From IMG/VR virus record IMGVR_UViG_3300036845_000049, positions 1,816-65,815 of that record: a stretch of DNA of 64,000 bases; one strand, given 5' to 3'. Origin of the DNA: a virus (lineage: Duplodnaviria > Caudoviricetes). The notes beneath the pieces were generated by a model. The model did not search any database and was not told where the DNA came from. It saw only the letters and a list, made by a program, of their open reading frames with translations. Shown one piece after another: positions 5,601 to 38,204 of this stretch (the first letter of the stretch is position 1; each line of letters starts with the position of its first letter). A program made the position numbers and the translations under genes.

Positions 5601-8600
5601 CAAGCTTTACTTTGTTGGTCAGCCCATGCTTGCTGATTGGGCGCAAGTTGGGCGTAGGGCGTACCCATCCACCCGCCGGTCGCCGTAGGCCCGTTGTAGG
5701 TGCCCCCCCAAATCGCGTTCATTACCGCTGTAGCGCCAGCGGGGTTAGTCGTCAATCCACCACCGGTGGCAAACGCAGTCGCAGGAATAGCCCCACCAGC
5801 GGCGAACCGCTTGATCGGCCCACCCTTGCGGGACAGGATTTGCTTCGTGGTGTCCTTATCGTCAACACTATAATTCGTACTACCTGAACTATCGGTGGCG
5901 GACCCACTGCCGGTCGTGCCGATCACGTTGGGGTCGTACGAGTTCGCCGTAATGACGTTCGATACACCGGGGGTGCCGGTCGTCGTAGTCGAAGTCGGGT
6001 CCGTCACCGTCGTACTAGTGGGATAATTCGTGATGTTCTGCACCGATGGCGGGTTGACGATTGTCGGCGAAGGCGTAGCCGCCGCAGGCGCAGCCGCCGC
6101 CGCAGCCGCTGGCGTAGTGGGGTAAGAAGCTGGGTTGTAGTACCAACTCGCCCTCCCCCCTCCCGCTATCTCGTTAGCGTTTTGTTCGTTATACCATTGT
6201 TGCTGGGCTGGCGTGAGCGCGTTGATATCAGCGGTTGTTCCCGGCCCACTCATAGTGGCAGCAAGCCCACCAGTGGACGTTGGCTGGGCCGCAAGCCATT
6301 GCGCCGAGTTCCAAGGCTGATACCCTAGTTGCGAGTTCGCATATGCGCCTACACTAGATAACCCACCCATCGACGGCTGTACCGTCGTAGGCGCAGGACT
6401 TCCCACCGGCCCTTGGTATGTCGTATAGGGGGTAGGCGAAGTGGTCGGTTGCCAACTGGTAAGCTGCACGCCGCCAGCGCCAGCATAAGCCATTGTCGGG
6501 CGAGAAGGGAGCGCCCCACCCTTGGCAAGACTTACCCGCTGGGTAATTGGGCCACCCTTCGCCGCGCCAAGCTGCATACCCAGCGTCATATCGTCCATAT
6601 TGGGCGCACCCACCGCGAAGTCTTGGTCATCCGGTCGGCGCATAGCCACCGGAGGAGGCGGGGGTGCTGGCGTTGGCGCAGCTTGCGACACTGGTGGGTT
6701 CGGCCCCCACAAGTGAGAAAGATCAATCGCCGTCATCTGCCTAGGCTGACCGCGAACATTTGGACCTTGGTTAGGCGCATCGATCTGAACAAAACGCGGG
6801 TCTTGTGCTGGCGTGGCGGGGATTGCACGCGTTGCGCTTACCGGCGTTGCATCGGGTGATGGTTTATTGGCTTCCACTGAAGGAGAACGTGCGGTCAGAT
6901 CGGGCCGCGCGCCATCGTCCGCTCGTGTTGCCGGACCCATTGGCAACGTCGTACGCCCACCACCTTCCGGCCCCATCTGTGGGGTTGGAGGCTCAGGCAC
7001 CGACGATGGTGTTGGGCCAACGTTAGGCGGTGCGCCCGTGCGTTGTGGCGGCCCCATTACTGGCCGGTCAGGCACGGACGAGGGCGTCATGCCGACGTTG
7101 GGCGGCGCGCCCGTACGTTGCGGCGGCCCTAAATCAGGCCGCTCCGGTATCCCTAGCTGACGACCGCGTGCAGCAATCGATGGCTCATTGCCCAACGTAC
7201 TGTCGTCAATCGGTGCAGCTTCGACCGGAACGCGGGTGTCACTTTGATCGCTAGTGTTCCGCTGCATGTCGCGAGCGCGCGCCGCTATCGATGTTTCATT
7301 GAACGGCGTATCGTCAGTATCGGAAGGCTTAGCGTCGGGTGCTGCACGATGCTCCGCTAATGTTCTTGCCGCCTTCTCTGCGCCTGCCTCAGTAACACCA
7401 TCCGCAGGTCCCGCCACTTGATAGGGGGTATGCAAAACTGGTGGCCCTTCGGGAGCCGCTTGAGCAACTTTATCCTTATTCGGTCCTTTCGTTGGTGTCT
7501 TAGCCGTCGTCGTGGGGGAGGCCAATTCAAAGTGCGGCTTATCCGGGTGCCGCCAGTCATCACCCGCGTTAAGTTTGACGCCTTCTTCCTTGGCGGCGGT
7601 TTTAATCGCGGCGGTGACCTTCGACTGCGCGGCGGGATCGAATGTAACCCGGTTATTACCATCAAGCGCCCATAAGTCGGCAGCGTTGCCCTTCATATGA
7701 ACAGACGCGTCCCCGCCATCCTTAGAGCCGACTTGTGACCACCCTACGCTCTTAGCCCAGTCCTGATCGACAGCGGAGCGCTTGCCATTACCCAGCACGA
7801 ACTTCAAGTCTGGGTTATCAGCGCGAGCGCGGGCGATAACCTTCTGCATATCGGGATTGATCTGCTTGAGGTTCGCCGCCTCATTGCCGACTGGATCGGG
7901 GTTCCAGCGGGTAAACATTGGTAGTTGATCACGGCCCTTGTCATCCTTGACAGGGATGTTGGCGTAGACGCCATTCGGGCCAGTGTTTGCGCCACCGCCC
8001 TTATCAACTGTTTGTTGGTAACCATCAGTGTTCATCGTAGCAGATTTCACTGATGGCGAAGCGGCGGCGGTGCGCGTAGCTGTGTCGCCGCCATGCACCG
8101 TCGCATACACGCTAGACGTGGGTGTACTGTTCAGTAATACGTCACTGCGCCCACCGCTCTCCTTATAGCCCCCGGCGCGCTCGAAATGCATCGCCGCGTA
8201 AGAGCCTTCCTCTGGTGACGCGGCGTTCTTAAATTGCTCCTTCGCCCGCGCCTGTTCAGGCGCATCCAAATCTGCGCCAGCGTAATATTTCAATTGATCG
8301 TCAAAGTTGGTATTGCCCGCAATCGGCGTCTTTCGGTCCCCCAACCATTGGGCGATGCCGAATGCTTTTGAGCTTGGGTTGACCGAAGTCGGCCCATCCG
8401 GTGCTTCCCGCGTCATACGCGCAACCGCACCCGCCGCGCCATACTCGGAAAACTTGCCGCTGTCCATTAAAACATTATAGGCATGCTGTTGGTTTTCCGG
8501 CGTCCAGAATTTACCCGATACTCCACCGCCATAACCGCCACCACCACCACCACCACCACTGCCGCCCTTATCCCAATCCCTCCCTGCTGCCTGCCCAGCA

Positions 8601-8785
8601 GCAATCTCTGCGGGGGTCAGTCCTTTGTTACGCCCAAGCCCACGGTTTGCCCATAATGCTTCCTGCGCAGCGTAATGTTTATTCAGCGCGTCATAATGCT
8701 GCTGCATTAGATACAGCTTCATCATCTCAGTAAATGACTTCGCGAAGCCGCCCGCGAATGCCCCAAAATGCTTGCTGTTAGCCAT
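2639..8785 (-). CDS. Large internal virion (ejection) protein with phage tail lysozyme-like and M15-type peptidase domains
   Basis: 2048 aa. FGIAQW/DQL/FER lysozyme-like motifs near the N-terminus; SVH..AAD..DKPHFEL zinc-peptidase motif; low-complexity P/T/A linkers; late-operon position. Confidence 0.75.
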   Translation of the reverse strand: MANSKHFGAFAGGFAKSFTEMMKLYLMQQHYDALNKHYAAQEALWANRGLGRNKGLTPAEIAAGQAAGRDWDKGGSGGGGGGGGYGGGVSGKFWTPENQQHAYNVLMDSGKFSEYGAAGAVARMTREAPDGPTSVNPSSKAFGIAQWLGDRKTPIAGNTNFDDQLKYYAGADLDAPEQARAKEQFKNAASPEEGSYAAMHFERAGGYKESGGRSDVLLNSTPTSSVYATVHGGDTATRTAAASPSVKSATMNTDGYQQTVDKGGGANTGPNGVYANIPVKDDKGRDQLPMFTRWNPDPVGNEAANLKQINPDMQKVIARARADNPDLKFVLGNGKRSAVDQDWAKSVGWSQVGSKDGGDASVHMKGNAADLWALDGNNRVTFDPAAQSKVTAAIKTAAKEEGVKLNAGDDWRHPDKPHFELASPTTTAKTPTKGPNKDKVAQAAPEGPPVLHTPYQVAGPADGVTEAGAEKAARTLAEHRAAPDAKPSDTDDTPFNETSIAARARDMQRNTSDQSDTRVPVEAAPIDDSTLGNEPSIAARGRQLGIPERPDLGPPQRTGAPPNVGMTPSSVPDRPVMGPPQRTGAPPNVGPTPSSVPEPPTPQMGPEGGGRTTLPMGPATRADDGARPDLTARSPSVEANKPSPDATPVSATRAIPATPAQDPRFVQIDAPNQGPNVRGQPRQMTAIDLSHLWGPNPPVSQAAPTPAPPPPPVAMRRPDDQDFAVGAPNMDDMTLGMQLGAAKGGPITQRVSLAKGGALPSRPTMAYAGAGGVQLTSWQPTTSPTPYTTYQGPVGSPAPTTVQPSMGGLSSVGAYANSQLGYQPWNSAQWLAAQPTSTGGLAATMSGPGTTADINALTPAQQQWYNEQNANEIAGGGRASWYYNPASYPTTPAAAAAAAPAAATPSPTIVNPPSVQNITNYPTSTTVTDPTSTTTTGTPGVSNVITANSYDPNVIGTTGSGSATDSSGSTNYSVDDKDTTKQILSRKGGPIKRFAAGGAIPATAFATGGGLTTNPAGATAVMNAIWGGTYNGPTATGGWMGTPYAQLAPNQQAWADQQSKAWAGTNQGTAALNAQGINPTYPASQLSLMPNAVWPTTTPAAPTPLNEPGASAQTITTPQVDITGIDPTSTTTTGIPGVPTTGTLAKTYDPNNIATTGTGSATDSSGSTNYSTDPKDQTTQILSRKGGPITRRVNRYDDGGGVSPSVAGAPPGATGGGAIPPIYYNPATYAAAGAPVGKGVSQTSAPTFGAGAIPSLPMARGGSVAFDDGGDVSAGDTAPDYSEERQTAGDDQMTTALLDQRDAAANAPPSMAQDGYYTPADYQTPAPSQAGPSSVSPITPEISDGQGNPSKGLISAIGDGLHWLGDHLGIGGAQAAPAIARDPQTQGNRQGFVQGKNVGDMDASIHNEIANTIDPNHSLNDAERQIAVMEGTYRYMLSQGNSEGAGRMAASILQYSVQTSQKFAEEAAKQLYDGNLKGAVDNINHASDAVPDGRQTHVHLNDDGTAIVEAKGMDGRVLWQHKGSAAAILQYATNRGRTGQMQWDALEEQAGKYDPTFRDMATNRQKNVIAQGKEDAQTASETRVANAVGGNELQPVTRVGKTDQSPTETPASSATAPTPTPASATASATASASPDSASAAPTADGTAPTGAGGKGPTGHGGGLPPPPSPADRPNPTAPTPDGQDVSFDSIAARINNQEQQTNASDAATIRSRYQTPEGYIHIDGQDWARPAPPNLQGLSRQEQTQAIQAYEKGPLAQYNDKAKRAQDAMNKDIADNRDIRSKQFQTLRDQAGREFTEGQTNKRETFTQEQTNKREAFTQGEADKRMQYDTDAKALAVKTAEEHAARAPRPDTDVQRTFSTQTDANGKITGKQPADFYKDQASTMPDGTVNPDQKFRDDHYNSEFGDRNQRMVMDNALVNGYRYTHDAEPAAIADALRGFVLNSYTATTAAVPEDGYGPRYAVTITRPSDGSRETVVLPRNDWANVLNMQRAKATLATRNQADTAAVANNPYRPPIPDNAGQSAGTPISKALGWQRGGAIPSSPMQRYG

Positions 8786-8802
8786 CTAACTTACTCTAAG
8801 GG

Positions 8803-10113
8803 TTAACCGGGGTATGCAGGGATAGCGCCGCCCATTGCGTGCGCTGGACGGGATACAAATGATGGATGCTGCGGGATCGCCGCCGTAGGCTCCCCGCCTA
8901 TGTCATTACGCCCTGCAAATTTCTGTTGCTCTTGCCGCGCCTTATCGATCTGCCCTGCAAAATATTGATGACCCTTCCACACCGCTACGTCTTTTGGGAT
9001 CACGAACTCGTGAGCGGTCAGCATCGCAGGCACGTCGTCGGTCGCCACGCCCATGCTTGGTGATGCGTGAATAGGCACGGTGCCCCCCGGTGTCGCCCCT
9101 GCGTCGCCACCACGATTGTATACCTGACGCGGCATCATCGGCGCGGAAGGAATGCCTGTCGCACCGCCGCCCTGATCCGGGGTTTGTTGATACGAAGCCA
9201 TACCCGGCACAGGAGGAAGCGCTGGCCCGCCGTCAGCATACCCAACCGCACCACCCTTAGCGATCCTCATAATCCCCGCGCCAAGCACACTACCCAACGC
9301 TGAGCCTAACCCGCCCATCTCGCCTGCGCCAGCTTCATTGAATGCAGCCTGCGATTGGTTGTACCCATTGACAGCGCCAACATAGCTGTTCATGGCGTTG
9401 GTGCCAGCGTTGAACCACTGGCTAGGGGCCGTCATCGCTTGCGAACCTGTCGATAAATTCCCCTGCGCCGTACTACCCGCACCCGACGCTGCGTTTGCCC
9501 CCGCCGATCCTGCTTGCGTACCAGCGCCAGTCAATGTGCCAACAGAATTGACCAGCCCCCGCCCAGTATTAATCGCGCCGCTCTCCAACTCCATCTGTTG
9601 GGCGCGTAAATTTTGCGCCGCCGTCGTTCCAGCGGCGGCTTCCGCCGCGCCAATCATCGGCTGTGCACCTGTGAACAATGACGCGTAACGCGCAGACCCC
9701 GGATTGATACCATAACCTCTAAGCGTCTCGGCAGCGGTATTAACGCCCTGCATCCCTTGCTCACCAACACTTGCCATGGCTTGCGCACGCGCGGTCGCCA
9801 TCGCCTGCGGCGACGCCCAATTTTGCGCTTGCTCAACGTAATTCGCTTCAAGCGGAGCGTAATATTGCTGATATTCCTGCCACTGTGCTTGGCTCTCAGC
9901 CTGCGATTGCGCCATGCTCGCTTCTTGCTGCTGAGCTAACGCAATCTGTTGCTGCTCGGATTGGTCCATGAGCGGTTGCTCTTGGTTCCAAACCTGCTGG
10001 GTCCACTGCAATTGCTGCTCACCAAGCGCGTACGCCTGATTGGCGGCCTGCGCAGACGCCATTGCCTGCATCATTCCAGACTGGTCGGCGCTACCGCCCT
10101 TATCGCTACCCAT
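8803..10113 (-). CDS. Internal virion/DNA transfer (pilot-like) protein
   Basis: 436 aa, Ala/Gln/Gly-rich helical; YADGG...DDVPAMLTAHEFVIP motif typical of ejection/tape-measure proteins. Confidence 0.65.
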   Translation of the reverse strand: MGSDKGGSADQSGMMQAMASAQAANQAYALGEQQLQWTQQVWNQEQPLMDQSEQQQIALAQQQEASMAQSQAESQAQWQEYQQYYAPLEANYVEQAQNWASPQAMATARAQAMASVGEQGMQGVNTAAETLRGYGINPGSARYASLFTGAQPMIGAAEAAAGTTAAQNLRAQQMELESGAINTGRGLVNSVGTLTGAGTQAGSAGANAASGAGSTAQGNLSTGSQAMTAPSQWFNAGTNAMNSYVGAVNGYNQSQAAFNEAGAGEMGGLGSALGSVLGAGIMRIAKGGAVGYADGGPALPPVPGMASYQQTPDQGGGATGIPSAPMMPRQVYNRGGDAGATPGGTVPIHASPSMGVATDDVPAMLTAHEFVIPKDVAVWKGHQYFAGQIDKARQEQQKFAGRNDIGGEPTAAIPQHPSFVSRPAHAMGGAIPAYPG

Positions 10114-25565: not shown

Positions 25566-26031
25566 TGCCCGCCTCCCTGTTATCTAGTAGCTCCTGCTGG
25601 GGGTTGTCCCCCAACTCGATACGTCTTACCGGCACGGAGCTACGAATGTGCCGTGTCTCCTGCCACGAAGCGGGTACGCCGGTAAACGTACGATATACCC
25701 ACATATCGATATCATCAAACATGTAGTATCGTTCACCCCGGCTCTTGTCGGGCGGTTCTTTGAATGAATTGCCGCCGAAGATCGTCCACTTCGGCCCACT
25801 CTCGTCGCGGCTGAACGCTTCCAGCACGTCAGCACGTAATGCTTTGCCCCAACGTCTTTGCATGTAAATGATCGCGTCGTCTACATGAATGTATCCGGCA
25901 GGGATGTTCGGGTCCCACTTGGCGATCAGCGGCTTACGCGCTTGTGCATCGGCGCGACGCTCTTGGTCCCGTTCTTTACTCTGCGGGTAAAGCCCCCGAT
26001 CAGTTTTATCAATAAAATCTTTCACGTTCAA
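25528..26031 (-). CDS. HTH/excisionase (AlpA/MerR)-like DNA-binding protein
   Basis: L......GPKW..FG...RYY.FDDID.WV pattern. Confidence 0.5.
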   Translation of the reverse strand: MNVKDFIDKTDRGLYPQSKERDQERRADAQARKPLIAKWDPNIPAGYIHVDDAIIYMQRRWGKALRADVLEAFSRDESGPKWTIFGGNSFKEPPDKSRGERYYMFDDIDMWVYRTFTGVPASWQETRHIRSSVPVRRIELGDNPQQELLDNREAGNGSQPSDGWSRQ

Positions 26032-28610
26032 TGGGTCGGCCCTCCCTGATTAACCAAGTTCGCTCGCGGCTGTCCCGGCTGGGGCGCGGGCGTGGGCGGT
26101 GCGCCCCCCTGCGCCACCTGTGCGGGTCCGGGTGCGCCTACGTTGGGTGGTGCTTGTGGGGGTCCACCCTGACCGGGAGGCACCGGAGGGCCGCCCATGG
26201 GCGCATGCCCCGGCTGGCCTTGTGACGCCGCCATCGCCGCCGCTTGCTGTTGTTGCTTTTCAAGATCGGCTTCGCTCGGGACGATGTTCTCGCCCGGTAG
26301 ACCAATCTCGGTGGCGACGCTACGAAGAACTTGCGCCCGACCTTTCGGCCCAATGATCCCCATATCAATCGGATTAGCAGTAAGTTGCAGGAACTCCAAT
26401 TGTCTTGCACGTTGCGTTTCGCGCTGTTGCGCCACCTGCACGCCCAGCACACGAACTTTTTCTTCCCCAGTCAAAAGCCCTGTTTGATCTGTCAACATCA
26501 CCATATCGAGCAGCGCATTGATGACCGGCTCGATCACGTCGATATCAATGTTCGACGCTACAGTCTGTAGGATTTTGGAACTGTTCTGCATCAACATGGA
26601 AAGGCCGCTGGCCGTACGGCCAAGGCCCCCACTAGGAGGACTACCAGTCATGAACTTCGGTATGGCGCTGGCTTCATCCGCCATCGCGGAGAACGCCTGA
26701 TACACCGCCAGCATCTCGCTCGCGTTGCTGGATGGGGAGAAGAACTCGACCGCCTTCTCGGTGTTGTTCCCAAATGGATCGCTCTTAACGTGCCAGCGCT
26801 TCCATGGGTACATGTCCTCGCCGTTCTCGCCGTCGCCTAGTCGGTCATCATTGACGACGACCTGCGGGCCAGAACTAATCGAGAGGTTATTAACCAGAGC
26901 GCGCAGCGTAGCATTAGCCACCGAAGAAACGTCTGCGAGTAGATCAGGCAAGCCGTTTCCAGCCGGAGTGCCGGGAACCTTCTCGAAACTAGTGATGTAA
27001 TATTGATGGCGTTTGCGGGGCGAGGGAATGAGTTGTACCTTAATGATATGACGGCCAATAAGCCAAGCATTGCAAAAGTAATCCCTGAGCGGGTCCGGTA
27101 TCTCAGTGGGGTCCATCCCCAAGTCTAGAAGGAACCGACCCTGTGCGTTCCCCTGAAACTCCAAACAGGCTATAAGGCCACTCTGATTAAAACGCGGGTC
27201 CTCGCGTCCTTCAAGGATACTACGCTCGCTGTCGGTTTGGTCCCAGTTGTCAACCAGACCGCCTCGACCATATTCGTCCAATACGGCTCGGACTTCCTCA
27301 CTAATAAATCCCGGTAAATCCAAGAGTGTGTTAATTTCAGAGCGTGTAAGACGACTACGCTGGATAATGTTTGCATCTTCGATCTGCGCTACGCCGGGGG
27401 TCCAGTAAATATCGAATGGGCTAACGCGCTCCCAGCATAGCACCGGCACGTCTTGCACAGTCGGTTTAGCTAATTGCGCTTGCGGATTTGCGGCTCCTTG
27501 CATGGGAGAGTTGCTTAATCCGCCTTGGGCGGGCGTTTGTTTTGGAGCAGGAGGCGCAATGCCAGAACTTACCCCCGGAGTAAGTTGGGAGTCGGGCATT
27601 GGCAAGTCAGTGGACGGATTGCCGGGTAAGGCCGACGCAGGGGAGTTGCTGTTCGCCGGGAACGGCGATACATCCTTTGTCCACTTGACTTGGGTCTTGA
27701 TCCGAACCGTAGGCCCCTTCATACAGGCGTACGGGAACATCGGTAGATCGACTAGAAACTCAGCGAGGGCGGTATAGAACCCGCCCATCGCCAGCAGTTC
27801 TTCAAGCTTGTCCTGCGCCACCTTGCATTGATCGTTGGCCTTCCGCTTCGCCTCATCGCGGGCGTCACTCATCATCAGGTCATACACGTCCCTGACCTGA
27901 TTAGGGTCAGGTAATGGCGGTGGGGGTGGAGGTGGGACCATGCCAGCCCCCACACCCGGAGGCGGTGCCGCGCCGGGAGGTATTGCACCGGTATGCATGC
28001 CTTGCGACGGCCCGGACGCTGAGGGTATTGCTTGATCTGTAAACGCTGGGGATACCCCAGCACGAGCACCCGCCGCTTGCGCTGCTGCTGTGCCAATCTG
28101 GTGAGCGACATTTGCTGATGCTGCCTGAAAGTGCGCTTGTATCTGAGATGTGACCGTCTCGCCGATATGCTGGGCGATGGCTTGCACAACTTCGTCGGGA
28201 ACGTCGGGGTCGCTCGACGGCTCAAGCCCCCACGGCTTGTCTGTACCTAGATAAACATCACGAAGGAGCGCCGAGGTGCCCCGACACTTCATCGCGATAA
28301 TGCGAGCGTAGACGTTGCTACCGCCGAACTTCTTAATCTCTTGAATAACGTTCGTGTCGTAGATGCCATTAAACGCTCGCAAGCTTGCGAGCAGTCTATC
28401 GCTCCACCCGCGACCGACAGTATCTCTATGGCGTCGCATGAGAGAGTATTGATCGGTAATGAACCCAGCTAGGCCGACCGGCGCGAGCAGGGCGCTATCA
28501 GGAGGACGCTGGTAAGCCTGCGCCCGCGTGGCGTCCATCACCTGCTGCTGTGCAGCCGTGTCGTCGCGTCCAACGACGCGTAGGGCCGGTGCATTCGGTA
28601 GCGCCGCCAT
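26028..28610 (-). CDS. Portal protein
   Basis: Probable start MAALPN at 28610; ERVSPFDIYW, G.GLPDLL.D, N...SSGPQV, RTASGLSMLM motifs; Pro-rich insertions. Confidence 0.85.
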   Translation of the reverse strand: MAALPNAPALRVVGRDDTAAQQQVMDATRAQAYQRPPDSALLAPVGLAGFITDQYSLMRRHRDTVGRGWSDRLLASLRAFNGIYDTNVIQEIKKFGGSNVYARIIAMKCRGTSALLRDVYLGTDKPWGLEPSSDPDVPDEVVQAIAQHIGETVTSQIQAHFQAASANVAHQIGTAAAQAAGARAGVSPAFTDQAIPSASGPSQGMHTGAIPPGAAPPPGVGAGMVPPPPPPPLPDPNQVRDVYDLMMSDARDEAKRKANDQCKVAQDKLEELLAMGGFYTALAEFLVDLPMFPYACMKGPTVRIKTQVKWTKDVSPFPANSNSPASALPGNPSTDLPMPDSQLTPGVSSGIAPPAPKQTPAQGGLSNSPMQGAANPQAQLAKPTVQDVPVLCWERVSPFDIYWTPGVAQIEDANIIQRSRLTRSEINTLLDLPGFISEEVRAVLDEYGRGGLVDNWDQTDSERSILEGREDPRFNQSGLIACLEFQGNAQGRFLLDLGMDPTEIPDPLRDYFCNAWLIGRHIIKVQLIPSPRKRHQYYITSFEKVPGTPAGNGLPDLLADVSSVANATLRALVNNLSISSGPQVVVNDDRLGDGENGEDMYPWKRWHVKSDPFGNNTEKAVEFFSPSSNASEMLAVYQAFSAMADEASAIPKFMTGSPPSGGLGRTASGLSMLMQNSSKILQTVASNIDIDVIEPVINALLDMVMLTDQTGLLTGEEKVRVLGVQVAQQRETQRARQLEFLQLTANPIDMGIIGPKGRAQVLRSVATEIGLPGENIVPSEADLEKQQQQAAAMAASQGQPGHAPMGGPPVPPGQGGPPQAPPNVGAPGPAQVAQGGAPPTPAPQPGQPRANLVNQGGPTH

Positions 28611-28635
28611 CCCCGCCTTACCCTCAGGGTAACTA

Positions 28636-28670
28636 TTGCATGTGCGTGTTCGCAAACATGCAACACGCAA
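28636..28670. repeat. 35-bp repeat copy 2
   Basis: ttgcatgtgcgtgttcgcaaacatgcaacacgcaa. Confidence 0.9.
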
Positions 28671-28758: not shown

Positions 28759-29289
28759 ATGACCCCCATTTCTACGGCGTTGCTCACAAAAGACGACGAA
28801 AAACGGCTCCGCGATCTGGCTGCTGGCCTGATCCGAGGCATAGAAGAACCCGAAACGGTCATGAGCCGCTGCGGGTTCAGCCCCGGCGATTACACGGAAC
28901 TGAGCGAGACCCGCATGTTCCGGCAGATGCTCAGCGAAGCGCAGGAAGAATGGGAGGGCGCGCGCAACACGCACAAGCGCATCAAGCTGAAGGCCGCCGT
29001 CAACGTCGAGGAAGCGCTGCCCCATTTCTACAAGGCGATGATCAGCGAGAAGGAGCCGCTTAGCTCCAAGGTCAAGGCGTTGGAGGTCGTCGCCCGGATC
29101 GGCGGGCTTGGCAACCCGGAGCCAGTCGTGGCGAGCAACGGTCAGTTCTTCAAGCTGGAAATTAACCTAGGCGGGGGCGTCGCCCCTATCGTGGCGGCGA
29201 TTGGGGTGGAGAATGTGACCATCGAGCATGAAGCACAAGTTTTTAATCAAAGCCGACTGTTCGACGCGTTGCCACTTGAGGATTTGTAA
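28759..29289 (+). CDS. Putative terminase small subunit (opposite strand)
   Basis: 176 aa helical protein with N-terminal HTH-like part and C-terminal F.LEINLG strand; lies between terminase and portal. Confidence 0.5.
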   Translation: MTPISTALLTKDDEKRLRDLAAGLIRGIEEPETVMSRCGFSPGDYTELSETRMFRQMLSEAQEEWEGARNTHKRIKLKAAVNVEEALPHFYKAMISEKEPLSSKVKALEVVARIGGLGNPEPVVASNGQFFKLEINLGGGVAPIVAAIGVENVTIEHEAQVFNQSRLFDALPLEDL

Positions 29290-30027: not shown

Positions 30028-30252
30028 TCAAACAAGCGTGTCAATACGTCGTATGATTTCGTCCTCACCCAAGCACAGCCACGCCGGATCGTTGAATGCA
30101 TGCACGGCGAACGCCGCCTTGGCATGATCCAGCGGCCCGGTAGGGCCAGCGTAATTAGCGTTCTGCGCCTCACGCTTGCAGATCGGCCACAAGATATTGA
30201 GGTCGATCCTACGCTGGTAAGCGCGCCACCAGTTGAGCGGGTTCAGGTCCAT
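30028..30252 (-). CDS. Hypothetical protein
   Basis: 74 aa, overlaps the terminase stop. Confidence 0.6.
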   Translation of the reverse strand: MDLNPLNWWRAYQRRIDLNILWPICKREAQNANYAGPTGPLDHAKAAFAVHAFNDPAWLCLGEDEIIRRIDTLV

Positions 30253-31748
30253 GCTAGAGCGCTAGGCGCCTGCCGCATCGGGCGGCGTGGCTTGAGTGAT
30301 TGCACGATCCGTCCCAGCACCCAAGCATAGGCACCTGCATTACCCGTCACCAGACACACATATTGCAGACAATCCGCCACGTCGCTCCAAGGGTGCAGCT
30401 TCTCGGGGATGGCTTTCTGGTAGGTGCCTCCCGACTTGTCCTGATCCACGTCGAACTTATACTGCCCGTTCAGCGCCGCTACGAGGGTAGGGCAGCGCGT
30501 TCCATCAATAAGGATCGCTGGCCCACCCTGTATGTTCCTAATGAAAAACTGCTCGACGCCACGTAGTCTTGGATCGAGGTCGTTTGTAGGGGCAGGTTCT
30601 GCCGCCAGCCCACAATTTTTCAGAACATCAAAACTATTCCACTCAAACAGGCTATCCTTCGCCCGCCCGCTCGGGTCGCCCACCAACCCGATAGGCCTAC
30701 CGGCGTATCGGGCGCTAAGGAGTGTAGGTATGAGGTTCTGCTTACAGTGCTGCTCCAACCCAATATTCTCTCCTGTCGGCCCGCGCCCCGGCACTTCTTC
30801 GAGGACTAACAATCGTCCTGAGTGGTCGAGTTGGCAGATGAGGCTCCACGGCGATCTGCCAAAATCTTGGCCCACGATCAACATCCGAGAGTACACAGGT
30901 TCTAGGGGAGATATTGATACATGGTAGTCATACCTGAAACTCTCCGCGAATACCGCCGCACCAGATGGATCACGCCCTAGTTGTGCGAATACATACCGGC
31001 GTTTATAGTCTTCAGACCCAACCTCCATAAGTCGCTCATAGTACCCCCGCCCCTGTTTGATGCGAACAGGGTCATCCTCCGGCAGGAGGACTGTTTCGGC
31101 GGTTTGATTAAGGTGCGGTAGGTTCTCTGCGTCTGGCGACATACCGGATGGTTGATGGAATATCTGCCACTGGGGTGGGGGCGCTTCAAGAAAGCTAGCC
31201 CACGGCGTATTCATAATTGGACTGTTCGTATCACACCAGATGCCCGACCACGTACAAGGACCAAGTTCGCCGCTGGGATAACGCCCAACACGACCGGCAA
31301 TATCAGAAAGAAGGTTGATGTCGGTTTCAATCGACTCGTTTACAAACGCGCCGGTTAATTGAAGTGATAAAAGCCGCTTAACGTCATCGGGCTCATCTAG
31401 CGGGATCAACAGCCACTCCGAGTACACCTCGCCGTACTCAAGATAGATCGTACTCTCGCTGACCCGCCAATCCGCGATGTTGCCGAACCATGCACGGATA
31501 TCTTTTAGGATCGTGCTTTTGAGGTCCTTGAGTGATTGCCGGATGATGGCAAAACGGGTATACCTTATCCCATCGGCAGCAGGAGCTTGTTGCGCCATGC
31601 GGCGAGCCATCTCTACGATACAGGCAGTGGATTTGCCTGATCCGACCGGACCCCATATCAAACGTCCAAAACTGTCCGATTGAAGAAATTGAGATATTAC
31701 GGGTGGGGCGTTGTAAGTCCATTGCGATCTAACCGTGCCAGTACGCAT
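30243..31748 (-). CDS. terL: Terminase large subunit
   Basis: Walker A GPVGSGKS, Walker B-like AFVNE, CDTN coupling motif, nuclease GQDFG and DVADCLQY; likely start MRTGTV at 31748. Confidence 0.9.
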   Translation of the reverse strand: MRTGTVRSQWTYNAPPVISQFLQSDSFGRLIWGPVGSGKSTACIVEMARRMAQQAPAADGIRYTRFAIIRQSLKDLKSTILKDIRAWFGNIADWRVSESTIYLEYGEVYSEWLLIPLDEPDDVKRLLSLQLTGAFVNESIETDINLLSDIAGRVGRYPSGELGPCTWSGIWCDTNSPIMNTPWASFLEAPPPQWQIFHQPSGMSPDAENLPHLNQTAETVLLPEDDPVRIKQGRGYYERLMEVGSEDYKRRYVFAQLGRDPSGAAVFAESFRYDYHVSISPLEPVYSRMLIVGQDFGRSPWSLICQLDHSGRLLVLEEVPGRGPTGENIGLEQHCKQNLIPTLLSARYAGRPIGLVGDPSGRAKDSLFEWNSFDVLKNCGLAAEPAPTNDLDPRLRGVEQFFIRNIQGGPAILIDGTRCPTLVAALNGQYKFDVDQDKSGGTYQKAIPEKLHPWSDVADCLQYVCLVTGNAGAYAWVLGRIVQSLKPRRPMRQAPSALAWT

Positions 31749-31817
31749 CTTAGTCTCTCGCGTTCGCTTACCGCTCACGCTCGGTTGGAGGTTACCCCGA
31801 GAGTAAGTCGTGAGGGA

Positions 31818-31846
31818 ACTATAACACGAAGGTAAAGGGTTGTCAA
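31818..31846 (-). promoter_or_regulatory. Sigma70-like promoter for terminase operon
   Basis: TTGACA-N17-TATAGT on minus strand; palindrome copy at 31792 just downstream of the predicted +1. Confidence 0.75.
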
Positions 31847-31982
31847 TAAGGAAAACCCAAAGAATTTGGGTTCCCGGAGGGAAATTCCGAAAAGAGTTTT
31901 TGGCCCCAAGATGTTGTACGCGCACCTAAAGGCCGCGCCCCCGGTCCATGCCTTGGTCCAGATAGGGTTACCCCTAGGGTAA

Positions 31983-32468
31983 GTCGCGCCGTCTCAGTAT
32001 GATGTAGATAGGCTAGACTGAGACAACGGGTCAAGGCAATCTACCACCAACGCGAGGAGCGGGCTTAGGAGCCGTGGTGTCGAGGCAATGTCAAAGGGTA
32101 CTTTGACGCGCTTAATGCATGGAACCGGGCACAACTTCCCGAGACATGACGCGCGGAAGTCTGCTACATGGCGGGACGTAGGTCCTTCTGATCGGCGGGC
32201 GCAAAGGAGAGTAATGACTAGGCTTTAGTGGCGAACGCCACGAAACGCGACTTGCGGGTATAGCAACCCGTAGCGTTGACAACATTTGGTGGTGCGGATC
32301 GCACCTAGGTAAGAACCCTGAGCAGACACGATATGCTGCTAATAAGAGGCAAAGCTAGGCAGTGTCCATAAAGTTTTACCCGCAAGGGTAAACGCCAATA
32401 AAAATTAAGTCTTATTGATAAAATCAACCGCCGGGGAGCAATTCCCGGCGGTGTTTTACGTTCTTTTT
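31983..32468 (+). ncRNA. Candidate large structured non-coding RNA
   Basis: No plus-strand ORF of 60 aa or more; about ten hairpins, two GCAA tetraloops, long-range complementarity, ends in hairpin plus U-tract. Confidence 0.5.
32427..32468 (+). terminator. Intrinsic terminator
   Basis: accgccgggga-gcaa-ttcccggcggt followed by gttttacgttcttttt. Confidence 0.7.
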
Positions 32469-32870
32469 AGTCTTATTAGTCTTATTCGTCTTATCAGAAA
32501 AAACCCACTACTTGAGTCATAGGTTTCGGATAAGACCAAAACCGGCCTTAAGTCACTGGCAGGAGAGGCTTTTTATATGTATGTCTTATAGTCATATAGT
32601 AATATGCAAGTAGGAAGCAAACATAGGACCTACAACTTACCCGCGTGAATTGTGGGTAACTCGGGGCCTCCCCCCTATAGGTTGCTATCTAAAAATTTTT
32701 CGTAAGACTAATTTTTCCACTCTTATCCTAACAATATCAATGGGTTAGCGTGATAAGCGCAAGTGCTACTTTAAAAGACTAAAACTAACCCATTGATATA
32801 TTTGGAGATAAGACTTCTCAGTCTGAAAAGTTAGTCCTATCCCTGCCGTTCAGCGGCGTTTTAGGCTAGC
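32469..32870. other. AT-rich iteron-like region (putative origin or packaging/terminus region)
   Basis: Repeated GTCTTA(T)/(A)TAAGAC in both orientations; 15-bp inverted repeat 32734-32748/32785-32799; sits at the divergence of the two arms. Confidence 0.5.
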
Positions 32871-32892
32871 TTACCCCTGGAGTAACATCGAA

Positions 32893-33087
32893 ATGAAGCC
32901 TTTTACATACATACTAAAGGGTAACGGCAAGCACTGCACCGCTACCATTTTTCGGCCAAATGGCAGTGGTATAGATATTAATACCATGACAAGCCAACGA
33001 AACGATGCTAAGTCCCGTGCCAAGAAATGGGCAGAAAAGCGCGTTGCGTTCTACAACGCCAATTTTCCCGATTTGACTGAGGAATAA
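32893..33087 (+). CDS. Early hypothetical protein
   Basis: 64 aa, GGAG RBS lies within a palindrome copy. Confidence 0.6.
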   Translation: MKPFTYILKGNGKHCTATIFRPNGSGIDINTMTSQRNDAKSRAKKWAEKRVAFYNANFPDLTEE

Positions 33088-36751: not shown

Positions 36752-37861
36752 ATGAAACTCAACCAACTTGCGGCTCGAATACCAGCGCTGTACTATAGCG
36801 CGCTGGAAACGGGCGGCCCGTCCTATATCACCGAGAGTGCGCCCGGTCGTGGCAAAACCAGCGTGTGGTGTCAGTTTCCGAAGCTAATGAAACGGATTGA
36901 CCCACAGGGTAACTATGGGCTGAGCGTCATCAATGGCGCGAACTTCACGCTGATGACAGCGATGGGGTTCATGGTTCCCGTCACCGACGCCAACGGCAGG
37001 CAGGTATCTCAGTTCACCCTGCCGTATTGGTGGCAGTCAACCGAGGGCAAGCCGCTAGACGCGTATGATGGCGGTATCATCCTTGTTGACGAGGCCGACA
37101 AGCTCGGCATGGATGAGAAGAAAATCGTTGGCGAGGCAGCGCTGAGCAAGATACTCGGCACGCATCGGTTCCCACCGGGCTGGGTGGTTGTGTTCGCTGC
37201 TAACCGAATGTCGGATCGTTCGGGCTCGACGCGCGAGTTGGATCACCTGATCAATCGTCGCATCAAGATTGAGATAACCGACGACGTTGAGGCATGGGTG
37301 GAATGGGCGCTAGCTGAGAAGTTATTGCCTGAGACAATCCAGTTCGGCGAGGAAAACCCGCAGCTATTGTTCGAGCCGAAGCCGGACGATCAGCGTCCAT
37401 GGTGCACGCCAAGGTCATTACACCAGATTGATATCCATCTGCAATCGCTCATGCGTTCGTTTGACAGCGACAAGATACCGACCGATCCTCTGACGCAGGA
37501 GGAAATCAAGGGTGGCATTGGTGCGCCAGCATGTGCGCAGTTCGTCAAGACGATACGGCTTGGGCAGGAGCTATCGAGCTACGAGGACGTGATCGCCAAC
37601 CCGACAACAGTTACTCTGCCGGGTAAGCCTGACGCGATGCGGCTCATGAGCTACAAGATTGCGTCACGTGTGAGCGTTGAGGATGCTAAGCAAGCGCTCA
37701 CGTTCATGTCTCGCATGCCTGTAGAGCATCAGACGATCTTCGTTCGCATGGCGATACAGCGAACATATACTCTGGCGTTTGAGCCTAACTTCGCTGCGTG
37801 GTGCGGCAGGAATACCGCGCTAATCGCTATTCTTAACAGGTACAAGACTGAGAACAAGTAA
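36752..37861 (+). CDS. MoxR-like AAA+ ATPase
   Basis: Walker A SAPGRGKT, Walker B ILVDE, sensor AANR, LINR, TPRS. Confidence 0.85.
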   Translation: MKLNQLAARIPALYYSALETGGPSYITESAPGRGKTSVWCQFPKLMKRIDPQGNYGLSVINGANFTLMTAMGFMVPVTDANGRQVSQFTLPYWWQSTEGKPLDAYDGGIILVDEADKLGMDEKKIVGEAALSKILGTHRFPPGWVVVFAANRMSDRSGSTRELDHLINRRIKIEITDDVEAWVEWALAEKLLPETIQFGEENPQLLFEPKPDDQRPWCTPRSLHQIDIHLQSLMRSFDSDKIPTDPLTQEEIKGGIGAPACAQFVKTIRLGQELSSYEDVIANPTTVTLPGKPDAMRLMSYKIASRVSVEDAKQALTFMSRMPVEHQTIFVRMAIQRTYTLAFEPNFAAWCGRNTALIAILNRYKTENK

Positions 37862-37865
37862 CCCT

Positions 37866-38204
37866 ATGGGTAAAAGACGAGTGGTTAACCTATACCGCGC
37901 TTCACCACGCCCTGACTGGAACCAAAACCCACCCCACTGCCAAGTGTCAGTCACACTTAACGAGACAATTATAGGAACCGACACTATGCGTTTAGTATTC
38001 AATACCTCACTCACTGTTGACGTGAGCGCCAACGATGATGAACTGCGTAAGGCGTTCATGGAGTTGGTTACCCAGTCCGCGCGCACGATCTACGGACCGG
38101 CAGCGATGCTGGCCAAGTCCCGACCGATCATCAAGATCACGGAGACTTCGCGCGATGGCATGAAGGATGTTGACCTGTTCGATGAAGCGTTACCCAATGA
38201 GTAA
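37866..38204 (+). CDS. Hypothetical protein between ATPase and vWA genes
   Basis: Start and stop both lie inside palindrome copies. Confidence 0.6.
   Translation: MGKRRVVNLYRASPRPDWNQNPPHCQVSVTLNETIIGTDTMRLVFNTSLTVDVSANDDELRKAFMELVTQSARTIYGPAAMLAKSRPIIKITETSRDGMKDVDLFDEALPNE

What the first reader, a model, noticed from the sequence alone, without database searches (positions are those of the whole stretch)
31983..32468. ~480-nt highly structured non-coding RNA candidate at the arm divergence
SEEN: a stretch without a convincing ORF that is packed with stems: gtctcagt/actgagac, ggct/agcc, gtcaaag/ctttgac, acttcc/ggaagt, ggac/gtcc, gtggcg/cgccac, tgcgggt/acccgta, ggtgcg/cgcacc, tttaccc-GCAA-gggtaaa, and a terminal GCAA-capped hairpin with U-tract. 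Long-range complements include accaccaa (~32043) with ttggtggt (~32286), caacgc with gcgttg, and gtcgcg (31983) with cgcgac (~32246). GNRA loops and the U-tract point to the plus strand. KNOWN: phages carry large ornate ncRNAs (GOLLD, ROOL) and packaging RNAs; I cannot assign this one to a family. It is adjacent to the terminase promoter and would be the first plus-strand transcript.
Basis: partly seen in the sequence, partly recalled or inferred. Interest (0 to 1): 0.75.

Follow-up and report, generated by a model that had tools for sequence, protein, structure and literature searches.

The report
New large folded RNA in soil phages
The flagged stretch is a real, roughly 540-base folded non-coding RNA gene that a small group of uncultured soil phages keeps between their packaging gene and their early genes; it matches no described RNA family and its job is still unknown.

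Summary
Confirmed. Window 31924-32457 (+) holds a conserved, highly structured non-coding RNA that ends in an intrinsic terminator (32427-32452 plus a T tail). It lies in the 1.1-kb ORF-poor gap between terL (30243-31748, -) and the first rightward ORF (32893).

- **Folding:** z = -4.13 against shuffles.
- **Relatives:** 26 related loci came from uncultured phages.
- **Central domain:** 24 base pairs are 97.7% paired across 9 distinct sequences, against 34-52% when partners are slid. 17 of 24 pairs changed on both sides, and 0 of 500 shuffles reached this.
- **Second domain:** one helix is 100% paired in 11 sequences, with 4 of 5 pairs covarying.
- **Strand:** 20 G-U cells point to the plus strand.
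- **Rfam 15:** no family matched in the window or in 10 relatives.

A nearly invariant 36-nt block (31924-31959) sits at or just before the 5' end. The RNA is modular, and some relatives lack the central domain.

Function is unknown. My best guess is a stand-alone, early, protein-binding scaffold or decoy RNA. The main rival is a cis-acting early leader.

No expression data could be obtained. The scan's look-up by sequence found only this window. Notes on other genomes concern unrelated candidates.

The parts
31924..32457 (+). Whole proposed RNA, about 534 nt. The 5' end is uncertain and could lie up to about 50-80 nt further upstream. The 3' end is in the T tail of the terminator.
   Evidence: Homology with relatives begins at 31924. 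Terminator. Fold z -4.13 for 31983-32468.
31924..31959 (+). Nearly invariant block ACCTAAAGG-N8-CCGGTCC-N3-CC-N2-GGTCC. It is probably the transcribed 5' part of the RNA; its role is unknown.
   Evidence: Found in 22 of 27 upstream regions. Four of the five without it have 610 nt or less of upstream DNA; the fifth is L030. Single copy in the window.
31967..31982 (+). 5' hairpin TTACCC-CTA-GGGTAA, a member of the genome-wide palindrome family.
   Evidence: Most relatives keep a copy here; seven of them read TTGCCC...GGGTAA, a G-U pair on the plus strand (read by eye).
31991..32024 (+). Helix A (GTCTCAGT / ACTGAGAC). It interleaves with helix B, so the two may form a pseudoknot.
   Evidence: Seen in the window, L002 (one C-G to G-U change) and, with bulges, L006 (read by eye). 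Support is limited.
32004..32044 (+). Helix B (GTAGAT 32004-32009 / ATCTAC 32039-32044), directly after the conserved GTA-N3-TGT motif.
   Evidence: At the same two anchors relatives have GTAGCT/AGCTAC, GTCGAT/ATCGAC, GTCCA/TGGAC, GTTCCC/GGGGAC, GTAGGCCA/TGGCCTAC and a 12-bp version in L004. Each helix alone is not significant against shuffles, except L004, L026 and L031.
32045..32079 (+). Helix C (CACCA / TGGTG). It encloses the CGC-GAGGA-GCG hairpin (32051-32061) and a variable hairpin (32062-32073).
   Evidence: GAGGA hairpin: 18 of 18 cells paired, 2 of 3 pairs covary. Helix C: 75% paired in the MAFFT alignment, where two rows are offset by one column.
32090..32107 (+). Hairpin D (GTCAAAG-GGTA-CTTTGAC).
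   Evidence: The base GTC/GAC is kept and the upper part is replaced by other paired sequences in relatives (read by eye).
32107..32155 (+). Three-tier stem: E1 (32107-32111 / 32151-32155), E2 (32118-32121 / 32145-32148), E3 (32126-32129 / 32138-32141).
   Evidence: E1 100% paired with 4 of 5 pairs covarying; E2 95%; E3 90%. E2 and E3 are present in 5 of the 9 sequences.
32159..32200 (+). Helix H (GTCTGCT 32159-32165 / GGCGGGC 32194-32200). It encloses the conserved strands ACATGGCG and TTCTGATC and hairpin F (32173-32186).
   Evidence: H 98% paired with 6 of 6 pairs changed on both sides; F 100% paired with 3 of 5 pairs changed on both sides.
32228..32241 (+). Hairpin I (GTGGCG / CGCCAC).
   Evidence: Relatives have GTGGC/GCCAC and TGCGG/CCGCG at the same place (read by eye).
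32253..32272 (+). Hairpin J (TGCGGGT / ACCCGTA), lineage-specific.
   Evidence: Replaced by other hairpins in L017 and absent in L019.
32291..32305 (+). Hairpin K (GGTGCG-GAT-CGCACC). The sequence GATCGCAC is conserved.
   Evidence: A T-A to G-C change in L017, L019 and L032; the register differs in other groups (read by eye).
32304..32367 (+). G domain: helix G (CCTAG 32304-32308 / CTAGG 32355-32359), an inner hairpin, and the conserved GGCAGTGTCC (32358-32367).
   Evidence: helix G is paired in 55 of 55 cells across 11 distinct sequences, and 4 of 5 pairs changed on both sides.
32375..32392 (+). Hairpin M (TTTACCC-GCAA-GGGTAAA).
   Evidence: Kept in group 1. Group 2 has CGATC-TGCAAAT-GATCG or CAAGC-TGCAAAT-GCTTG at the same place.
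32427..32462 (+). Intrinsic terminator: 11-bp stem, GCAA loop, GTTTTACGTT tail.
   Evidence: Relatives of group 1 have CCGGCAAGGG...CCCTTGCCGG plus a T-rich tail at the same place.

Best explanation
**What is shown.** The stretch is a gene for a large (about 0.53-0.58 kb), modular, highly folded non-coding RNA read on the plus strand. It is the founding example of an undescribed RNA family confined, as far as I could search, to one clade of uncultured soil phages.

Folded parts, in order:
1. The invariant 36-nt block.
2. Helix B, with a possible pseudoknot partner.
3. A junction closed by helix C.
4. Hairpin D.
5. A three-tier stem.
6. Helix H, whose internal loop carries the conserved strands ACAUGGCG and UUCUGAUC around hairpin F.
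7. Several replaceable hairpins.
8. The widely shared G domain.

In this phage the RNA appears to be its own unit. It ends in a strong intrinsic terminator, and a separate promoter-like site (32572-32600) follows before the first ORF.

**What is inferred.**
- Host RNA polymerase makes it rightward from a start at or upstream of the block, as the first product of the rightward (early/replication) arm.
- It acts as a folded RNA, not through long base-pairing. Helices change sequence freely, while unpaired junction strands and the 5' block stay fixed. That pattern is typical of RNAs that build a tertiary fold and bind a protein or other partner.
- My committed guess is a trans-acting scaffold or decoy that binds a conserved host or phage protein early in infection.
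For: **Existence and fold**
- Fold z -4.13; relatives z -3.76 and -2.51.
- Central domain: 170 of 174 cells paired over 24 pairs in 9 distinct sequences. 17 pairs changed on both sides, 0 of 500 shuffles reached this, and slid controls gave 34-52%.
- Helix G: 55 of 55 cells paired in 11 sequences, 4 of 5 pairs covary.
- GAGGA hairpin: 18 of 18 cells paired.
- A covariance model of the central domain finds 14 of 28 sources at E from 3e-7 to 7e-33.
- The energy-only fold of L017 recovers helices B, C, D, E, F and I and the terminator.

**Strand**
- 20 of the 170 paired cells are G-U. On the opposite strand only 150 of 174 would pair.
- The terminator tail fits the plus strand.

**Not coding**
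- No ORF above 57 aa.
- Single-column indels in the alignments.

**Stand-alone unit**
- Terminator at 32427-32452, then a promoter-like site at 32572-32600.
- All 6 group-1 sequence types (window included) have the terminator, and 5 of the 6 have a promoter-like site beyond it.

**New family**
- No Rfam match.
- No DNA match among 50,697 phage records.
Against: - No transcript evidence: no RNA run holds the stretch.
- No clear sigma-70-type promoter lies upstream of the RNA in the window. 13 of 17 sequences, window included, have a weak-to-fair hit ending 6-124 nt upstream of the block, but I ran no shuffle control for that count.
- In groups 2 and B the RNA runs straight into small ORFs, with no terminator or promoter between. 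There it is at least also a 5' leader, which favours a cis role.
- The structures were drawn by eye from the same sequences on which they were counted. The sequences are related (9-11 distinct types), so the shuffle controls overstate significance. No R-scape-type test was run.
- No protein partner is identified. The early genes next to the RNA have no family match.
Confidence: 0.45

Rival explanations
1. Cis-acting early leader. The RNA is the long 5' leader of the rightward arm. Its fold, perhaps with a small arginine-rich phage protein, sets how much transcription passes the terminator at its end. That could work by processive antitermination, as with lambda nut/N or HK022 put, or by attenuation.
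For: - It lies at the head of the rightward arm and ends in a terminator.
- In L005, L014, L026, L006, L024 and L004 a 59-71-aa, very basic ORF follows the RNA directly. No terminator or sigma-70-like promoter lies between, so RNA and ORFs would share a transcript.
- The fixed 5' block could be a polymerase-binding element.
Against: - The window and its nearest relatives lack those small ORFs. They have a strong terminator followed by their own promoter-like, AT-rich repeat region.
- About 500 nt with several junctions is far more than known antitermination or attenuation leaders need (recalled knowledge).
- No alternative terminator/antiterminator pairing was found.
Confidence: 0.3
2. Replication-origin transcript. 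The folded RNA ends beside an iteron-like, AT-rich region and serves as a primer or activator of replication, as ColE1 RNA II or the phage T7 and T4 origin transcripts do.
For: - About ten GTCTTAT-type repeats and AT-rich DNA lie directly after the terminator, at 32406-32830.
- Relatives carry their own different repeats at that place.
- The phage encodes a family A DNA polymerase, a primase/helicase and a helicase.
Against: - A clean intrinsic terminator releases the RNA instead of leaving a hybrid.
- Groups 2 and B have no repeat region after the RNA.
- A primase is encoded, so an RNA primer is not needed.
Confidence: 0.08
3. Packaging-related element. Either the RNA takes part in DNA packaging like phi29 pRNA, or the invariant block is the DNA site (pac/cos) read by the terminase and the RNA is incidental.
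For: - It lies next to terL.
- The block is single-copy, the most conserved non-coding sequence of the region, and contains a direct GGTCC repeat.
Against: - The phage has an ordinary large terminase.
- It also has a homologue of the protein encoded just upstream of terL in Rhizobium phage RHph_TM3_14A, a likely small terminase, at 28759-29289.
- Covariation shows selection on the RNA fold, not only on DNA.
- The contig ends of relatives do not coincide with the block.
Confidence: 0.05
4. No functional RNA. The region is a DNA-level control region (promoters, operators, terminators) whose hairpins reflect composition and protein-binding palindromes.
For: - The gap holds promoters, a bidirectional-looking terminator and members of a palindrome family with about 75 copies in the window.
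- The minus strand also folds better than shuffles, z -3.19.
Against: - 17 of 24 and 4 of 5 pairs show double changes that keep pairing.
- 20 G-U cells would be mismatches in DNA or on the other strand.
- Helices are kept while their sequences diverge to below 70% identity.
Confidence: 0.03

Closest known systems
GOLLD, ROOL and OLE: large 'ornate' bacterial and phage RNAs of unknown function
   Same: - A large (over 400 nt), multi-junction, heavily covarying RNA.
- Conserved unpaired junction nucleotides.
- Encoded by phages, as GOLLD and ROOL often are.
- No known function.

GOLLD, ROOL and OLE form homo-oligomeric RNA complexes (PMC12286853; I saw only the search listing and the start of the abstract).
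   Different: - No match to any Rfam model, and these families are in Rfam, so it is not a member.
- Different context: the terL/early-gene divergence of a soil phage clade. That GOLLD and ROOL usually sit next to tRNA genes is recalled, not checked here.
- Oligomerisation was not tested.
phi29 pRNA (packaging RNA)
   Same: - A phage-encoded structured RNA.
- The fold is conserved while the sequence drifts.
- Encoded at the head of an early transcription unit (recalled).
   Different: - pRNA is about 120-174 nt and works with a terminal-protein/gp16 packaging system (recalled).
- This phage has an ordinary TerL and a TerS-like gene.
- No Rfam match.
Lambda nutL/N and HK022 put early leaders
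   Same: - Sits at the start of the early arm, before a terminator.
- Some relatives encode a small arginine-rich protein right after it.
   Different: - Those leaders are tens of nucleotides long (recalled); this RNA is about 540 nt with several junctions.
- The window lacks the small ORF and has its own promoter-like site after the terminator.
ColE1 RNA II and phage origin transcripts
   Same: - About 550 nt of folded RNA ending next to an AT-rich, repeat-bearing region.
- A family A polymerase is encoded.
   Different: - It ends in an intrinsic terminator.
- The repeat region is missing in several relatives.
Candidate structured RNAs mined from IMG/VR (PMC10690425)
   Same: The same data source and the same kind of evidence (covariation in phage intergenic regions).
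   Different: - Those 8,495 candidates are 29-151 nt long (passages read), so none can be this whole RNA.
- Single hairpins or sub-domains of it may be among them.

Membership tests
Any Rfam 15 family (including GOLLD, ROOL, OLE, HEARO, pRNA, RNase P, tmRNA, 6S, group I/II introns, riboswitches) | A match to the family's covariance model at its gathering score | tested here: not met
   - 0 matches in the 64-kb window at gathering score.
- At E up to 10 in 31700-32950, only terminator-like or chance hits far below gathering (best 26.6 bits against 114).
- 10 related loci at E up to 1: one unrelated hit elsewhere.
Large ornate ncRNAs (as a kind, not a homologous family) | Over 400 nt, many helices and junctions supported by covariation, conserved unpaired nucleotides, no coding capacity | tested here: met
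Large ornate ncRNAs (GOLLD/ROOL/OLE) | Homo-oligomeric RNA-only assembly | not testable with these tools
   Needs native gels, SEC-MALS or cryo-EM of the transcript.
phi29-type pRNA | The phage packages with a pRNA-dependent ATPase and lacks an ordinary terminase | tested here: not met
   - terL 30243-31748 matches large terminases of 24 phage records.
- A homologue of a likely small terminase lies at 28759-29289.
Antitermination or attenuation leader (nut, put and the like) | Lies in the same transcript as the genes it controls, upstream of the terminators to be passed | tested here: inconclusive
   - Window: the terminator is followed by a separate promoter-like site.
- Groups 2 and B: ORFs follow directly.
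- No transcript maps are available.
Genome-wide TTACCC-N3-GGGTAA palindrome family of this phage | A 6-bp arm palindrome with a 3-nt spacer | tested here: met
   - 31967-31982 matches with 0-1 mismatch.
- 32375-32392 has a 4-nt spacer and was not picked up by that pattern.
- These two hairpins are family members embedded in the RNA; the remaining helices are not.

The most novel reading that the evidence does not exclude
The RNA is the first thing this phage clade makes on entry. It works in trans as an ornate RNA machine. Its invariant 36-nt 5' block and fixed junction strands would grip a conserved host factor such as RNA polymerase, Rho (several relatives carry a C-rich, G-poor tract right after the block) or the ribosome. 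Alternatively it assembles into an RNA-only complex like ROOL or GOLLD. Either way it would take over or shield against a host system. That would be a new functional class of phage-encoded large RNA, and unlike GOLLD and ROOL it would come with a clear place in the infection programme.
Probability: 0.2. Interest if true: 0.85.

Novelty: new variant of a known kind. Interest (0 to 1): 0.68.

Why it matters
- **Rarity.** Very few bacterial or phage non-coding RNAs above 400 nt with complex, covariation-supported folds are known. Each of GOLLD, ROOL, OLE and raiA has opened questions about what large RNAs still do without proteins.
- **Fixed context.** This one has a clear genomic position at the head of the rightward arm, next to the packaging gene promoter.
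- **Natural variants.** Its modular build offers natural deletion variants: type B lacks the central domain.
- **Binding-site candidate.** It carries an almost invariant 36-nt element that calls for a binding partner.
- **Testability.** Together these make function testable once a host is found.
- **Scope.** It shows that soil phage 'dark matter' holds RNA genes as well as unknown proteins.
- **Annotation.** The 1.1-kb 'empty' gap should not be read as only promoters and an origin.

Tried and rejected
**Known families.** Rfam searches at gathering and at permissive thresholds in the window and in 10 relatives found nothing.

**tRNA/tmRNA.** None in the window.

**Cultured-phage relatives.**
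- No DNA match in 50,697 phage records.
- The nearest TerL is 46% identical (Rhizobium phages), and their gene order differs.

**Expression.** No RNA holder is listed for the stretch. Six DNA soil runs hold all or part of it. I did not lay reads, because contigs of DNA runs cannot show a transcript.

**attP reading of the block.** Rejected.
- No integrase or resolvase family in the 65.8-kb record.
- No TerL relative in 185,579 species genomes.
- The five 20-22-nt identities in bacterial contigs are about the number expected by chance for 19 fixed bases in 596 Gb.
- They lie inside coding sequence with unrelated flanks. Two of them are in one homologous gene of two Bryobacterales MAGs.

**Block as a repeated phage promoter.** Rejected, because it is single-copy. 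The pattern had one N too many and did not even match the window's own copy.

**Block as antisense to a universal RNA.** No match in E. coli genomes.

**Sigma-70 promoter at the block.** None in the window.

**Family outside the clade.**
- A G-domain pattern found 29 stretches in IMG/VR. Six are known clade contigs.
- Of the other 23, one (L048) keeps the helix. It overlaps a ribosome-binding site in an unrelated phage and is taken as chance.
- Block patterns found only clade contigs.

**'The RNA replaces a missing small terminase'.** Weakened by the TerS-like ORF at 28759-29289.

**CsrA-sponge and anti-Shine-Dalgarno sponge ideas.** GGA or GGAG motifs are neither systematically in loops nor clearly enriched. 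This was a count by eye; no test was run.

**Full-length MAFFT alignments.** They misplace variable hairpins, so I counted pairs only on short anchored segments.

Full report
**Setting.**
- The window is bases 1816-65815 of a 65,815-bp IMG/VR virus record rated complete.
- Genes on the minus strand fill 1-31748. They include a portal (26028-28670), a 2048-aa virion protein and the large terminase terL (30243-31748).
- Genes on the plus strand start at 32893. They include an ATPase, a family A DNA polymerase, helicases and a primase/helicase.
- Between the two arms lie 1,144 bases without a convincing ORF.
- A near-consensus sigma-70 promoter for terL (TTGACA-17-TATAGT, 31846-31818, minus strand) sits at the left of this gap.
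- A weaker promoter-like site (32572-32600, plus strand) sits towards the right.
- An 11-bp GC-rich hairpin with T tails at 32427-32452 lies in between.
- The finding, 31983-32468, is the GC-richer core of the gap.

**The observation.**
- The plus strand folds 4.1 standard deviations better than dinucleotide-preserving shuffles, and the minus strand 3.2.
- No ORF above 57 aa overlaps the stretch.
- No Rfam family reaches its threshold anywhere in the window. A permissive search of the gap gave only terminator look-alikes far below threshold.

**Relatives.**
- The stretch has no DNA match among 50,697 deposited phage genomes.
- The nearest cultured TerL is 46% identical (Rhizobium phages).
- Searching with TerL gave 7 IMG/VR loci and 19 metagenome loci at 76-82% TerL identity. 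None came from 185,579 species genomes.
- In window orientation, 22 of the 27 upstream regions (window included) carry a nearly invariant block, ACCTAAAGG-N8-CCGGTCC-N3-CC-N2-GGTCC, at window 31924-31959.
- Four of the five without it are contigs that end 610 nt or less upstream of terL. The fifth is L030.
- Downstream of the block the sequences diverge fast. The window matches L002 at 80-91% only at the two ends, L017/L027 at 68% over 474 nt, and others only in patches.
- All relatives examined with enough upstream DNA nevertheless keep several hundred ORF-poor bases there.

**Comparative structure, central domain.**
- I cut the segment between two conserved anchors (window 32096-32215) from 9 distinct sequences and aligned them with MAFFT (A3).
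- I then counted a structure I had drawn by eye: stems E1, E2 and E3, helix H and hairpin F, 24 pairs in all.
- 170 of 174 cells form standard pairs (97.7%), against 34-52% when the 3' partners are slid by 1-3 columns.
- 17 of 24 pairs show changes on both sides, and none of 500 shuffles reached any of the five measures.
- Helix H is striking: all 6 pairs changed on both sides, with up to five pair types per position.
- A covariance model built from A3 finds this domain in 14 of 28 sources at E from 3e-7 to 7e-33. It does not find it in L004, L006, L015, L024, L008, L021 or L022. Two weak hits (E 0.027 and 0.2) lie elsewhere, and I take them as chance.

**Caveats on these counts.**
- I derived the structure from the same sequences.
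- The sequences are related.
- The tool itself warns that both facts inflate the contrast.
- Even so, the size of the effect and the variety of pair types are far beyond what those warnings cover.

**Comparative structure, G domain.**
- A second anchored segment (window 32285-32375) aligns across 11 distinct sequences (A6). These include L006, L015 and L024, which lack the central domain.
- Helix G (CCTAG/CTAGG in the window) is paired in 55 of 55 cells, and 4 of its 5 pairs changed on both sides.
- The inner helix is only 69% paired in this MAFFT alignment, because its register shifts between lineages.
- The strands GTA(A/G)(G/T)A after the 5' arm and GGCAGTG after the 3' arm are conserved and unpaired.

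**Comparative structure, 5' part.**
- After the block and a variable, often C-rich stretch comes a conserved GTA-N3-TGT motif.
- Directly after it, helix B pairs with a strand that always abuts the next conserved motif.
- The paired sequences differ between lineages: GTAGAT/ATCTAC, GTAGCT/AGCTAC, GTCGAT/ATCGAC, GTCCA/TGGAC, GTTCCC/GGGGAC, GTAGGCCA/TGGCCTAC, and 12 bp in L004.
- Each helix alone is short and mostly not significant against shuffles in that call. The argument rests on the fixed anchors on both sides.
- The CGC-GAGGA-GCG hairpin is paired in 18 of 18 cells, with 2 of 3 pairs covarying.
- The local helix C is 75% paired in the MAFFT alignment because two rows are offset by one column. 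In L031 it reads CACTCG/CGAGTG.
- The energy-only fold of L017 independently gives helices B, C, D, E, F and I and the terminator.

- acttcc/ggaagt is specific to the window and conflicts with E3.
- GGAAG is conserved and unpaired in every type A sequence.
- gtcgcg/cgcgac and caacgc/gcgttg have no counterparts in L002 or L017.
- accaccaa/ttggtggt is a perfect 7 bp in the window, L002 and L032 but only 4-5 bp in L017 and L019, and it competes with helix C. It may be an alternative pairing, but I cannot show that.
- tgcgggt/acccgta is lineage-specific.
- tttaccc-GCAA-gggtaaa and the hairpin at 31967 resemble the TTACCC-N3-GGGTAA palindrome. That palindrome gave 149 two-strand matches across the window against 13 expected.

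**Strand and ends.**
- 20 of the 170 paired cells in the central domain are G-U. Read on the other strand, only 150 of 174 would pair.
- The terminator has its better T tail on the plus strand, and group-1 relatives keep a different but equally paired terminator there.
- The 5' end is not fixed by any data.
- The window has no sigma-70-like site upstream of the RNA at my thresholds.
- 13 of 17 sequences have a site ending 6-124 nt upstream of the block. In three lineages it shares the TTGTCAA of the terL -35 element (no shuffle control).
- I therefore think the block is transcribed and is the 5' part of the RNA. This is inference.

**Modularity and units.**
- Type A has every domain: the window, L002, L017/L027, L019/L029, L025, L032, L005/L007/L018, L014, L026 and L031.
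- Type B (L006, L015, L024) goes from helix B through a small hairpin straight to the G domain, and then has other domains.
- L004, L008 and L021/L022/L028 differ further.
- In group 1, which includes the window, the RNA ends in a strong terminator. An AT-rich region with lineage-specific short repeats and a promoter-like site follows. In the window these repeats are about ten GTCTTAT-type copies at 32406-32830.
- In groups 2 and B there is no such terminator or promoter. A 59-71-aa, very basic ORF follows, often with a small acidic ORF after it.
- So the RNA is a stand-alone unit in the window and at least also a leader in some relatives.

**What it is not.**
- It is not an attachment site. 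The phage has no integrase or resolvase, and the few 20-22-nt identities of the block in bacterial genomes are at chance level and inside genes.
- It is not a repeated phage promoter.
- It is not a substitute for a missing small terminase, because a likely homologue exists at 28759-29289.
- The G-domain and block patterns do not find it outside this clade in IMG/VR.

**How it most likely works.**

Shown:
- A plus-strand RNA fold under selection.
- A terminator at its end.
- Conserved single-stranded junction strands and a fixed 5' block.
- Free replacement of peripheral hairpins.

Inferred:
- Host polymerase transcribes it first on the rightward arm.
- It acts as a folded particle that binds a partner. 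Selection keeps the shapes and the unpaired strands, not long stretches that could pair with a target.

Odds:

| Reading | Confidence |
|---|---|
| A genuine structured RNA gene | about 0.9 |
| Trans-acting scaffold or decoy | 0.45 |
| Cis-acting early leader | 0.30 |
| Origin transcript | 0.08 |
| Packaging role | 0.05 |
| No functional RNA | 0.03 |

**Comparison and novelty.**
- In kind it is closest to the large ornate RNAs GOLLD, ROOL and OLE, which also occur in phages and lack a known function (PMC12286853 and PMC5737381; listings and abstract starts only).
- It fails the only available membership test, a match to their Rfam models.
- The IMG/VR survey of structured RNAs reports motifs of 29-151 nt (PMC10690425; passages read).
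- My two literature searches turned up no description of such an RNA. That is weak evidence of absence.
- I rate it a new variant of a known kind: a new family of large phage ncRNA with its own architecture and context.

**Limits.**
- There are no expression data.
- The host is unknown.
- Structures are hand-drawn and counted on 6-11 related sequences.
- No phylogeny-aware covariation test was run.
- The 5' end and the promoter are unknown.
- The function is a reasoned guess.

Noticed in passing
window 749-62812 (for example 8790-8805, 32870-32885, 37858-37873): The palindrome TTACCC-N3-GGGTAA(G) gives 149 two-strand matches at up to 3 mismatches, against 13 expected. Many lie at gene junctions just before start codons. 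Among 13 asymmetric copies in the leftward arm, the wobble-compatible reading is on the mRNA strand in 5 and on the other strand in 8. That points to a DNA-level (protein-binding) site more than an RNA hairpin.
   Followed up: partly
window 32406-32830: About ten copies, in both orientations, of a GTCTTAT-type 7-10-mer lie in the AT-rich region between the RNA's terminator and the first rightward ORF. A 15-bp perfect inverted repeat also lies there (32734-32748 / 32785-32799). Relatives carry different repeats at the same place. These look like iterons or operators (origin or early-promoter control).
   Followed up: partly
window 28759-29289 (+): A 176-aa ORF on the plus strand, between the portal gene and terL (both minus), is 31% identical over 139 residues (E 1.6e-15). 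The match is to the protein encoded just upstream of terL in Rhizobium phage RHph_TM3_14A. It is a likely small terminase that lies convergent to terL.
   Followed up: partly
L006, L024, L014, L026, L005, L004 (first ORFs after the RNA; positions): Relatives that lack the terminator encode a 59-71-aa, very arginine/lysine-rich protein directly after the RNA. Often a small acidic protein with a conserved (E/D)L(D/E)RYDALQRWLDA motif follows. Neither ORF was seen after the RNA in the window; the rest of the window was not searched. The basic protein could be an RNA-binding partner or an N-like factor.
   Followed up: no
window 31818-31846 (-) and 31855-31895: The terL promoter is near-consensus (TTGACA-17-TATAGT with a TG before the -10), which is unusual for a late gene. 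A palindrome copy (31791-31806) lies just after it. Two small hairpins (AACCCAAA/TTTGGGTT and CGGA/TCCG) lie between this promoter and the conserved block. On the minus strand the first reads as a terminator-like hairpin with a T-rich tail.
   Followed up: no
L033 1227-1248 and L034 1007-1026: The central 20-22 nt of the conserved block are identical to a stretch inside a homologous 386-aa gene of two Bryobacterales MAGs, in antisense orientation to that gene. From recalled motifs alone the protein looks like a SAM-dependent RNA methyltransferase. Equal-length identities occur in Planococcus, Verrucomicrobia and Deltaproteobacteria contigs, and the total equals the chance expectation, so this is probably chance.
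   Followed up: partly
window 2639-8785 (-): The 2048-aa virion-arm protein has an endolysin-like segment (residues 304-441, PHROG 465, E 4.6e-17) and a weak tail-protein match. It has no Pfam hit and no sign of an RNA polymerase.
   Followed up: no
L002-L032, upstream of terL: The terL genes of relatives differ in length (1503-1602 nt for the same 501 query residues), with an insertion-prone region around residue 200 of TerL (consensus).
   Followed up: no
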